Origin: a virus
Reading direction: 5' to 3' (one strand)
UHGV virus genome: UHGV-0325397
Length of the DNA: 14,104 nt
Below the pieces are notes generated by a model that was not told where the DNA came from, did not search any database, and saw only the letters and a list, made by a program, of their open reading frames with translations. A program made the translations under genes and the position numbers. Shown in pieces: positions 2,478-2,984 of the stretch (position 1 is the first letter of the stretch; the number at the start of each line of letters is the position of its first letter).

Positions 2478-2984
2478 TTAAATTGCGTGAATAGCGTGAC
2501 GAGGGAAGGGGAGAGTTACTGGTGCAAAGGGTATATCGTCGTCAAAATCCATCGGAGGTTCGTTGTGTTGTGCTGGTGATGATTGCTGCTGTGGCTTCTG
2601 TGATTGCCTGCTGACTGCTTGTTGTTTGCTGTCGCCAATGCCGCCAAGCATTTGCATCACGCCATTAATTCCGACATGAACCTCGGTTGTGTAACGGTCT
2701 TGCCCTGACTGGTCTTTCCACTTTCTGGTTCTCAGCATTCCCTCGAAATAAATCTGATCACCTTTTTTCACATACTGCCCCACGACCTCAGCCAGTTTCC
2801 CGGATACAGCAACACGATGCCATTCAGTCAATTCCTTTTGCTCGCCAGTATTTTTATCTCGCCATTGTTCTGACGTGGCTATTGTCAGGTTAGCGAACGC
2901 TGTTCCTGATGTTGAGTATCGAACTTCCGGGTCTTGTCCTACCCGACCAAGGATAATCACCTTATTTACGCCTCTGCTTGCCAT
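2478..2984 (-). CDS. ssb: Single-stranded DNA-binding protein (SSB) with a 15-residue extension past the usual acidic DDDIPF C-terminus
   Basis: N-terminus [27 protein letters not shown] and W/F-rich OB-fold region typical of bacterial SSB; Gly/Gln-rich linker; MDFDDDIPF present but followed by [15 protein letters not shown] before the stop. Confidence 0.88.

What the first reader, a model, noticed from the sequence alone, without database searches (positions are those of the whole stretch)
2478..2525. SSB with a 15-residue extension beyond the DDDIPF tip
Bacterial and phage SSBs normally end in the acidic tip ...DDDIPF, and the free C-terminal Phe is what docks onto partner proteins. Here the frame continues past DDDIPF for 15 more residues ([15 protein letters not shown]) before the stop at 2478-2480. 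If real, the conserved tip is buried, which could make this SSB a selective or dominant-negative competitor of host SSB interactions, or indicate a lost stop codon.
Basis: partly seen in the sequence, partly recalled or inferred. Interest (0 to 1): 0.5.

Follow-up and report, generated by a model that had tools for sequence, protein, structure and literature searches.

The report
Mobile-element SSB with capped tip
This prophage's single-stranded-DNA-binding protein really does carry 15 extra, evolutionarily conserved residues after the normally terminal DDDIPF docking tip; the same kind of cap occurs on many phage, plasmid and island SSBs but on no housekeeping SSB examined, and its function is untested.

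Summary
The ssb ORF (2478..2984, minus strand, 168 aa) reads ...[30 protein letters not shown].

It is not a lost stop codon or a base-call error. The same tip-plus-extension junction occurs in 297 of 5,426 complete E. coli genomes. It is also found in phages HK75, mEp235, mEpX2, epsilon34 and g341c, in IncN plasmids and, as diverged variants, in ICE-like islands.

Where the tail DNA has diverged, changes are synonymous (7 synonymous, 0 non-synonymous against L116), so the peptide is under selection. All 66 uvrA-linked housekeeping ssb genes examined end exactly at IPF. The cap was found only on non-housekeeping copies, in phage, plasmid or island settings where context was examined.

AlphaFold places the extension in the disordered tail, so it behaves as a short linear motif.

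A new finding: the boundary between IPF and the tail is an insertion site for a free-standing endonuclease gene (Sf6 gp26, Huey). In those alleles SSB ends canonically and the endonuclease ORF ends in the 14 tail codons. Other relatives lost the tail through a stop codon plus deletion.

The mechanism is inferred, not shown. The cap removes the free Phe carboxylate that host partner pockets anchor, so it probably re-specifies which partners this SSB recruits. I found no description of it in the literature.

The parts
2478..2984 (-). ssb gene, 168 aa plus stop. Its ATG directly abuts the stop of the upstream Rad52-like gene.
   Evidence: PF00436, E = 6e-36; E. coli SSB structures, E about 1e-56.
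2673..2969 (-). OB-fold DNA-binding and tetramerisation core, residues 6-104.
   Evidence: Pfam match. AlphaFold2 is confident for residues 6-114. W41, W55, H56 and W89 are invariant in the alignment.
2559..2642 (-). Gln/Pro-rich intrinsically disordered linker, residues 115-142.
   Evidence: pLDDT below 50. Highly variable among relatives.
2526..2558 (-). Conserved SSB-Ct tip [11 protein letters not shown], residues 143-153. Here it is internal rather than C-terminal.
   Evidence: pN/pS = 0.10.
2481..2525 (-). 15-residue cap [15 protein letters not shown], residues 154-168: the finding.
   Evidence: Conserved in phage, plasmid and ICE-like SSBs. Against L116 there are 7 synonymous and 0 non-synonymous differences. 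Disordered in the AlphaFold2 model.
2478..2480 (-). TAA stop codon of ssb.
   Evidence: The stop is at the same position in all type-1 alleles.
2523..2525 (-). Codon Ala154 (GCA), the point where related phages carry an inserted endonuclease gene. In Huey, Sf6 and others this codon is replaced by stop + RBS + a ~159-aa endonuclease ORF that then reads into 2522..2481.
2171..2464 (-). abc2-type anti-RecBCD gene immediately downstream (Rec module partner gene).
   Evidence: PF11043, E = 6e-63.
2985..3692 (-). Rad52/Rad22-family single-strand annealing protein immediately upstream (Rec module partner gene).
   Evidence: PF04098, E = 5e-26.

Best explanation
The 15 residues are a genuine, selectively maintained C-terminal module (a 'cap') of the SSBs encoded by mobile genetic elements.

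Shown:
- The cap sits at the end of the disordered tail.
- It is present in viable lambdoid phages, many prophages, IncN plasmid SSBs (encoded beside anti-restriction genes) and, as diverged variants, in ICE-like islands.
- It is absent from every housekeeping (uvrA-linked) ssb examined.
- It evolves under purifying selection on the peptide.
- The DNA boundary between IPF and the cap is a recurrent insertion site for free-standing endonuclease genes. Those insertions restore a canonical ...IPF-stop SSB and leave the cap codons as the endonuclease's own C-terminus.
- In other lineages the cap has been lost through a stop codon plus deletion.

Inferred:
- The cap turns Phe153 into an internal residue, which removes the alpha-carboxylate that the 'basic lip' of host SSB-partner pockets anchors.
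- The capped SSB should therefore coat the element's single-stranded DNA while recruiting host SSB-Ct clients (for example ExoI, RecQ, RecO, PriA, chi) poorly or selectively.
- The conserved hydrophobic/basic tail (consensus x-x-hydrophobic-G-[LY]-x-[YF]-P-(basic)-x-[AL]-[IL]-x-x-[ILM]-COOH) would offer a different docking surface.
- No element-encoded neighbour co-varies with the cap, so its partner is more likely a conserved host protein or the SSB itself.
For: Reality and spread:
- 108 of the 120 nearest protein clusters carry the tail.
- 297 of 5,426 complete E. coli genomes carry the junction.
- phages HK75, mEp235, mEpX2, epsilon34 and g341c carry it.
- IncN plasmid pTR4 SSB ends [20 protein letters not shown].
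- ICE-like topoisomerase/DUF3577 contexts carry type-2 tails.
- 14 of about 90 tip-bearing 50%-identity representatives carry some extension.

Selection on the peptide:
- in pairs where tail synonymous divergence is 0.41-0.65, non-synonymous divergence is 0.00.
- deep variants keep the amino-acid pattern with different codons.

Restriction to non-housekeeping SSB copies:
- 66 of 66 uvrA-linked ssb genes end at IPF, while 7 of 14 non-uvrA copies are capped.

Disordered short linear motif:
-.

No RNA or promoter element:
- (fold z-score 0.07).

No co-varying phage partner:
- upstream genes are Rad52-like, RecT-like, exonuclease or RdgC-like (the last three named by reading their sequences, not profile-tested); downstream genes are abc2, a DnaQ-like exonuclease or others.

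Endonuclease insertion:
-.
- the PHROG 2340 endonuclease profile ends before the tail.
- 8 of 28 left-flank differences lie in the last 29 nt before the insertion.

Secondary loss with remnants:
-.

Requirement of partner pockets for the alpha-carboxyl group:
- PMC10164576.
Against: - The internal DDDIPF stays as constrained as in canonical SSBs (pN/pS 0.10). That is unexpected if the cap simply inactivates the tip. The tip may still bind partners, may act intramolecularly, or may be re-exposed.
- No binding partner was identified.
- AlphaFold2 gives no structure for the tail.
- Phages with the cap removed (Sf6, Huey) are viable, so the cap is dispensable at least in the laboratory.
- Within E. 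coli and Salmonella lambdoid phages the tail DNA is nearly invariant even between alleles whose cores are saturated at synonymous sites. Part of the apparent conservation therefore reflects mosaic exchange rather than selection.
- No experiment exists on any capped SSB.
Confidence: 0.6

Rival explanations
1. Built-in C-terminal degron. The tail would act like an encoded ssrA-type tag. A non-polar C-terminus on a disordered tail (…HAIHAI, …AIYVI, …LLSVM, …LMNCI) would target the element's SSB to a host AAA+ protease (ClpXP, ClpAP, FtsH or Lon). The SSB would then act only transiently after entry or induction.
For: All tail classes end in mostly non-polar pentapeptides, whereas canonical SSBs end in the acidic DDIPF. 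The tail is disordered and accessible. It does not depend on any element-encoded neighbour and was found only on non-housekeeping SSB copies. From established knowledge, not tested here: non-polar C-terminal pentapeptides destabilise proteins in E. coli (Parsell, Silber and Sauer 1990); the ssrA tag is an 11-aa C-terminal tag; the MuA C-terminus RRKKAI is a ClpX signal.
Against: A simple non-polar degron would not need the strongly conserved internal positions (G-L-x-Y/F-P, Arg/Lys-His). There is no match to the LAA-COOH consensus. Nothing here measures stability.
Confidence: 0.2
2. An additional docking motif for one specific partner, for example the beta sliding clamp or the cognate annealing protein, with the tip remaining fully functional.
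For: PVTLPF / PIGLPY loosely resemble the hexapeptide clamp-binding pattern QLxLxL/F (Hda QLSLPL; my own knowledge). Phage Rec-module SSBs can use their C-termini for cognate annealase stimulation, as with HK620 SSB and Sak4 (PMC5928155). The tip is still conserved.
Against: The defining Gln of clamp-binding motifs is absent from every variant. The second half of the tail (RHAIHAI) is equally conserved and is not explained by this idea. The cap occurs with Rad52-like, RecT-like, exonuclease and RdgC-like neighbours, and in plasmids that have no annealase. The motif was found only on SSBs and on the endonuclease fusion, never on another protein family.
Confidence: 0.15
3. The conservation is at the DNA level only. 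The tail codons would be a module-boundary or homing-site sequence, or a scar of endonuclease gene excision, and the peptide would have no function.
For: Tail DNA is almost invariant among lambdoid alleles with saturated cores and with different downstream genes. Tail remnants persist as non-coding DNA after unrelated SSB-2 modules and after inserted genes. The site is an insertion hotspot.
Against: Where the tail DNA has diverged, substitutions are synonymous (pS 0.41-0.65, pN 0.00). Deep variants conserve amino acids and not codons. The frame and the ~15-aa length are always kept. Homologues of the endonuclease elsewhere lack the tail: L154 ends PIYPPSQI, and the PHROG 2340 profile ends before the tail. 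There is no RNA structure or promoter.
Confidence: 0.05
4. A sequencing error or a recent loss of the stop codon in this one genome.
For: None beyond the unusual architecture.
Against: The identical junction occurs in 297 complete genomes and in several independently sequenced phages.
Confidence: 0.01

Closest known systems
Escherichia coli SSB and its C-terminal tip (SSB-Ct, DDDIPF) interaction hub
   Same: Same family (PF00436): OB core about 58% identical, disordered Gln/Pro-rich linker and an intact [11 protein letters not shown] element.
   Different: The tip is not C-terminal. 15 conserved residues follow the Phe, so the alpha-carboxylate used by partner pockets (PMC10164576) is missing. 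The position of EcSSB Phe60 is Ser. The gene lies in a prophage Rec module and not next to uvrA.
Canonical-tip SSB-1 proteins of lambdoid and P22-like phages (Sf6 gp27, ES18 gp48, Huey)
   Same: Same gene position (annealase - ssb - anti-RecBCD). Huey is 97% identical over residues 1-153.
   Different: These proteins end at IPF. In Sf6 and Huey this is because an endonuclease gene is inserted exactly at the tip/cap boundary and carries the cap codons at its own 3' end.
HK620 SSB (SSB-2, HkaK), whose last six residues NDYPPF are needed to stimulate Sak4
   Same: A phage Rec-module SSB whose C-terminal peptide determines partner coupling (PMC5928155).
   Different: It is not homologous to SSB-1 in sequence. 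Its aromatic residue is terminal, and its partner is known.
Naturally tip-less SSB paralogues, for example Bacillus subtilis SsbB (my own knowledge)
   Same: A second SSB that coats single-stranded DNA without offering the canonical partner-recruiting tip.
   Different: Those paralogues lack the tip altogether. Here the tip is retained, conserved and capped.
Free-standing phage homing endonuclease genes, for example the T4 mob/seg genes and HNH genes of the T7 gp7.7 type (my own knowledge)
   Same: Presence/absence polymorphism at one precise site in a conserved gene, near-identical flanks and clustered substitutions next to the insertion. ES18 carries an HNH_3 gene at the same place.
   Different: This applies to the inserted gene in relatives, not to anything present in this window. 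Cleavage and homing have not been demonstrated. Pfam does not recognise Sf6 gp26 as HNH; only PHROG 2340 'endonuclease' matches.

Membership tests
Bacterial SSB family (PF00436) | OB-fold ssDNA-binding domain | tested here: met
   Pfam E = 6e-36 over residues 6-104. PDB E. coli SSB E about 1e-56. Confident AlphaFold2 OB fold.
Bacterial SSB family (PF00436) | Tetramer and DNA-contact residues (EcSSB W40, W54, H55, F60, W88) | tested here: inconclusive
   W41, W55, H56 and W89 are invariant. The Phe60 position is Ser in this subfamily.
Bacterial SSB family (PF00436) | Acidic tip D-D-D-I-P-F | tested here: met
   Residues 148-153. pN/pS = 0.10.
Canonical SSB-Ct interaction hub | The Phe is the last residue, with a free alpha-carboxylate for the partner's basic lip | tested here: not met
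   15 residues follow Phe153. The requirement is stated in PMC10164576.
Canonical SSB-Ct interaction hub | Binding to ExoI, chi, RecQ, PriA and similar partners | not testable with these tools
   Needs peptide-binding assays or complex prediction.
Beta-clamp-binding motif (QL[SD]LF / QLxLxL) | Gln at position 1, followed by hydrophobic residues at positions 2, 4 and 5/6 | tested here: not met
   No variant has Gln: the tails begin A-P-[VI]-[TG]-L-[PQ]-[FY], or G-[FH]-G-Y-G-[VI].
C-terminal proteolysis tags (ssrA-like LAA-COOH; MuA-like basic + AI-COOH) | Non-polar C-terminal residues on an unstructured tail | tested here: inconclusive
   Tails end in AI, VI, AL, SI, VM, CI and similar, and are disordered. 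There is no LAA and no stability data.
Free-standing homing endonuclease (the gene inserted in relatives) | Endonuclease fold or family | tested here: inconclusive
   PHROG 2340 'endonuclease' at E = 3e-47. A CxxC...HH...CxxCH..WH signature is visible by eye. No Pfam HNH hit.
Free-standing homing endonuclease (the gene inserted in relatives) | Presence/absence at a fixed site between near-identical flanks, with altered target codons | tested here: met
   Window and HK75 compared with Huey: 8 of 28 left-flank differences lie in the last 29 nt; the right flank has 4 differences in 360 nt. 17 endonuclease+tail loci against 80 SSB+tail loci in IMG/VR.
Free-standing homing endonuclease (the gene inserted in relatives) | Site-specific cleavage of the empty allele and copying into it | not testable with these tools
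   Requires enzyme assays or mixed infections.

The most novel reading that the evidence does not exclude
Capped-tip SSBs would be an unrecognised functional class specific to mobile elements. The 15-aa cap would make the element's SSB a 'stealth' coat. It would protect phage or plasmid single-stranded DNA while denying host SSB-Ct clients access (ExoI; RecO/RecFOR and hence RecA/SOS; RecQ; PriA), or it would time-limit the protein as a built-in degron. Selfish endonuclease genes that target the conserved DDDIPF-coding DNA would repeatedly 'uncap' it, creating a natural on/off polymorphism of the SSB interaction hub.
Probability: 0.35. Interest if true: 0.75.

Novelty: new variant of a known kind. 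Interest (0 to 1): 0.58.

Why it matters
The free C-terminal Phe of bacterial SSB is treated as a hallmark of the protein and as the anchor of a hub that organises more than a dozen genome-maintenance enzymes. It is also a drug target.

A large, conserved group of SSBs on mobile elements, in which that Phe is internal, would show how phages, plasmids and ICEs tune or evade that hub. The group is found in about 5% of complete E. coli genomes, in IncN resistance plasmids and in model lambdoid phages.

The biology is directly testable because nature supplies isogenic capped and uncapped alleles (HK75 and mEp235 against Huey and Sf6).

The link to endonuclease genes also explains why Rec-module 'HNH nucleases' sit next to ssb. 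It suggests they are parasites of the ssb 3' end rather than recombination-module components.

Tried and rejected
- Lost stop or sequencing error: rejected.
- Tail derived from the endonuclease C-terminus by excision: rejected. Homologues elsewhere lack it (L154; the PHROG 2340 profile ends at about residue 143 of gp26). A different inserted ORF leaves the tail as non-coding remnant (L221). Diverged tails co-evolve with diverged SSB cores.
- Co-occurrence with a phage-encoded partner: no association found with annealase type or with the downstream gene.
- RNA structure, promoter or terminator in the extension: none.
- AlphaFold2 monomer, to see whether the tail docks on the OB fold: the tail was predicted as disordered, which is uninformative. 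Complex prediction was not possible with the tools.
- Clamp-binding-motif membership: fails on the defining Gln.
- Motif scans of fetched loci and of IMG/VR for the tail on other proteins: only SSBs, the endonuclease fusion and remnants were found.
- Literature searches by sequence string and by topic: nothing on the extension.
- The genome-contig scan with an alignment mostly returned housekeeping ssb genes. I used these as the negative control.
- Pfam on Sf6 gp26 and on the 184-aa inserted ORF of L155/L221 gave no family.

Full report
**Observation.** The minus-strand ORF 2478..2984 encodes a 168-aa protein that is an unambiguous bacterial-type SSB. Pfam PF00436 matches residues 6-104 at E = 6e-36, and E. 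coli SSB crystal structures match at E about 1e-56. The sequence ends ...[37 protein letters not shown] is at 2543..2526, the extension at 2525..2481 and the stop at 2480..2478.

The gene sits in the early-left operon of a lambdoid prophage. It lies between a Rad52/Rad22-family annealing protein (2985..3692) and a P22 Abc2-type anti-RecBCD gene (2171..2464). Elsewhere in the window are int/xis, cI/cro/cII, O plus a DnaC-like loader, RusA and Q. The abc2 ribosome-binding site and start codon lie after the ssb stop, so no overlapping gene explains the extension. There is no promoter, terminator or unusually stable RNA fold there (z = 0.07).

**Not an error, and widespread.**
- A 90-nt query spanning tip plus extension is found at 80% coverage or more in 297 of 5,426 complete E. 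coli genomes, always annotated ssb.
- The complete protein is 98.8% identical in the viable phages HK75, mEp235 and mEpX2, and 91% identical in Salmonella phages epsilon34, g341c and NM-3, tail included.
- Of the 120 closest 90%-identity clusters in a 5.8-billion-protein collection, 108 carry a homologous tail. They come from Klebsiella, Citrobacter, Salmonella, Enterobacter, Kluyvera and E. coli. Their cores are 65-73% identical to the query and their linkers are very different.
- The IncN conjugative plasmid pTR4 and its relatives encode an SSB ending ...[25 protein letters not shown], next to anti-restriction genes.
- More distant variants keep the pattern with other residues:
  - APIGLPYPRHAIYVI: L018 in a Providencia stuartii genome, plus IMG/VR viral contigs whose hosts are not given.
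  - APIGLMHPTHAIFSI: Hafnia phage Pocitis76.
  - AYIGLQYPSHAIHSI: Mixta.
  - APFGLQYGKSRIYAL.
  - A second type, IGFGYGVPKSAIHAL and LGHGYGICRKAIYAIS, in islands that encode a topoisomerase and DUF3577 next to ssb. I take this to be an ICE-like arrangement.
  - A third type ending ...GLQYPALLSVM or ...LMNCI.
- In a search of 1.84 billion 50%-identity representatives, 14 of about 90 hits with a recognisable tip have residues after the IPF.

**Selection on the peptide.** Among E. coli and Salmonella lambdoid alleles the tail DNA is almost invariant, even where OB cores are saturated at synonymous sites (tail pS 0-0.16 against core pS 0.73-0.81). This points to mosaic exchange of this segment. 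In the alleles where the tail DNA has diverged (L116, L117), pS is 0.41-0.65 and pN is 0.00. Window against L116 shows seven synonymous and no non-synonymous differences in 15 codons. Deeper variants conserve the amino-acid pattern with different codons, the same frame and the same length. The preceding 11-residue tip is even more constrained (pN/pS 0.10).

**Restricted to non-housekeeping SSB copies.** A scan of one genome per species returned mainly housekeeping ssb genes. All 66 loci in which ssb is adjacent to uvrA end exactly at IPF. Seven of the 14 ssb copies not linked to uvrA carry an extension. Those whose context I examined lie in prophage recombination modules or in the topoisomerase/DUF3577 island arrangement.

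The cap does not track any neighbouring gene:
- Upstream are Rad52-like, RecT-like, YqaJ-type exonuclease or RdgC-like genes. The last three names come from reading the sequences; only the Rad52-like gene was profile-tested.
- Downstream are abc2, a DnaQ-like exonuclease or unrelated genes.
- In IncN plasmids there is no annealase at all.

In the fetched loci and in an IMG/VR scan for PRHAI[HY][AV]I-stop, the tail occurs only on SSBs, on one endonuclease family (next section) and as remnants. AlphaFold2 with an 85-sequence alignment gives a confident OB fold (residues 6-114) and pLDDT below 50 for residues 115-168. The cap is therefore a short linear motif at the end of a disordered tail.

**An endonuclease gene splits the cap from the SSB in relatives.** Phage Huey is 97% identical to the window over SSB residues 1-153, but its SSB ends ...PPMNFDDEIPF-stop. 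A ~155-aa endonuclease ORF follows, and that ORF ends ...[26 protein letters not shown] using exactly the window's tail DNA. abc2 comes next.
- Sf6 (gene 26) and at least ten IMG/VR loci have the same arrangement.
- About 98 complete E. coli genomes carry it.
- The GenBank note on Sf6 gp26 ('14 contiguous amino acids identical to E. coli SSB') is the only prior mention I found.

The tail belongs to the SSB and not to the endonuclease, for three reasons:
- The PHROG 2340 profile ends at about residue 143 of gp26.
- A related endonuclease next to a canonical ssb (L154) ends PIYPPSQI, without the tail.
- Homologues in other phages align only to about residue 137.

Between the window and Huey, 8 of the 28 left-flank differences fall in the last 29 nt before the insertion, and the right flank has 4 differences in 360 nt. 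This is the pattern expected of a free-standing homing endonuclease gene with altered target codons. The N/E tip variants also occur on some capped alleles, however, so this point is only suggestive.

The same boundary is used by other insertions. ES18 has an HNH_3 gene there and no tail. A 184-aa ORF of unknown family in L155 and L221 leaves IGLPYPRHAIYVI as a non-coding remnant. In the lineage carrying the APIGLPYPRHAIYVI tail, several 'canonical' alleles are visibly derived from capped ones. They have a stop codon directly after IPF, followed by a partly deleted tail (L269, L143, L146, L164). One allele (L161) reads through into that debris. Tail remnants also follow unrelated HK620-type Sak4/SSB-2 modules (L196, L234, L265). 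The capped state is therefore ancestral in these lineages and has been lost repeatedly.

**Mechanism.** The following is shown: the cap is real, conserved at the peptide level, disordered, confined to non-housekeeping SSB copies in the genomes examined, independent of neighbouring genes, and dispensable, since Sf6 and Huey are viable.

The following is inferred. Structures of SSB partners share a hydrophobic pocket for the terminal Phe side chain and a basic lip that anchors its alpha-carboxyl group, which is one of the most important contacts (PMC10164576). Fifteen residues after the Phe abolish that carboxylate. My best reading is that the cap re-specifies the hub. The element's SSB would coat its single-stranded DNA but recruit host SSB-Ct clients poorly or selectively, and the hydrophobic/basic tail would provide a different docking surface, probably for a conserved host factor or for SSB itself.

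The main difficulty is that the buried tip is still under strong constraint. It must therefore retain some function: carboxylate-independent binding, an intramolecular role, or re-exposure.

Rival readings:
- A built-in degron. All tail classes end in non-polar residues on a disordered tail, which is reminiscent of ssrA-type tags. This does not explain the conserved internal positions.
- A specific extra partner motif. Clamp-binding-motif membership fails on the defining Gln, and no annealase co-varies with the cap.
- Purely DNA-level conservation, which the synonymous/non-synonymous pattern contradicts.

**Comparison with what is known, and novelty.** By its OB fold and tip, this is a member of the bacterial SSB family. 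It fails the defining feature of the canonical SSB-Ct hub, a free C-terminal Phe. A 2025 survey of lambdoid Rec modules states that these SSB-1 proteins have not been studied experimentally. In the SSB and HNH passages I read, it does not mention the extension, and it treats the adjacent HNH genes as possible module members (PMC12315714). Sequence-string and topic searches found no description. I therefore rate it a new variant of a known kind. It is of moderate-to-good interest because it contradicts a textbook feature of SSB in a large natural group, and because capped and uncapped natural alleles make it easy to test.

Noticed in passing
window 12103-12627 (+): A 174-aa HNH_3 endonuclease ORF (PF13392, E = 1e-16) lies between a YbcO-like nuclease gene (11816-12106) and rusA (12628-12990). 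It is probably another free-standing homing-type endonuclease in the nin region. It belongs to the same Pfam family as ES18 gp47, which sits at the ssb 3' end in that phage.
   Followed up: partly
window 7429-8073 (+): A 214-aa T5orf172/MUG113 (GIY-YIG-like) domain protein is inserted between cII (7029-7394) and the replication O gene (8027-8902).
   Followed up: partly
window 4193-4600 (-): Homologue of the P22 gp17 superinfection-exclusion protein (PF17420, E = 2e-55) in the early-left operon.
   Followed up: no
window 2802-2804 (-), SSB residue 61: This SSB subfamily has Ser (VAVSGKL) where E. coli SSB has the DNA-contacting Phe60 (VVLFGKL). Hafnia phage Pocitis76 and the IncN plasmid SSBs keep Phe.
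   Followed up: no
L003 3632-4180; L092, L100-L105, L109-L112, L114, L116, L117: In many relatives a 182-aa DnaQ/Rv2179c-like 3'-5' exonuclease gene (PF16473) is inserted between the stop codon of the capped ssb and abc2. The ssb-abc2 junction is therefore a general insertion hotspot.
   Followed up: partly
H117/H118, H119/H120: In the four RefSeq E. coli records listed in which only the 45-nt tail or the whole Sf6-type insert matched, the features under the match are 'none' or ssb alone. The gp26-like endonuclease ORF seems to be left unannotated there.
   Followed up: no
L167 2568-3353 (IncN plasmid pTR4): A SprT-family zinc metalloprotease gene lies convergent to, and immediately after, the capped ssb in IncN plasmids. 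Whether it relates to the cap (for example by processing it) is unknown.
   Followed up: no
L155 6511-7065; L221: A 184-aa ORF with no Pfam family is inserted exactly between IPF-stop and the tail remnant IGLPYPRHAIYVI. It is possibly a second, unrecognised mobile gene targeting the same site.
   Followed up: partly
L066 6666-7498: In the ICE-like island with a type-2 capped SSB, ssb is followed by a small ORF and a GNAT acetyltransferase. The arrangement looks like a TacAT-type toxin-antitoxin pair.
   Followed up: no
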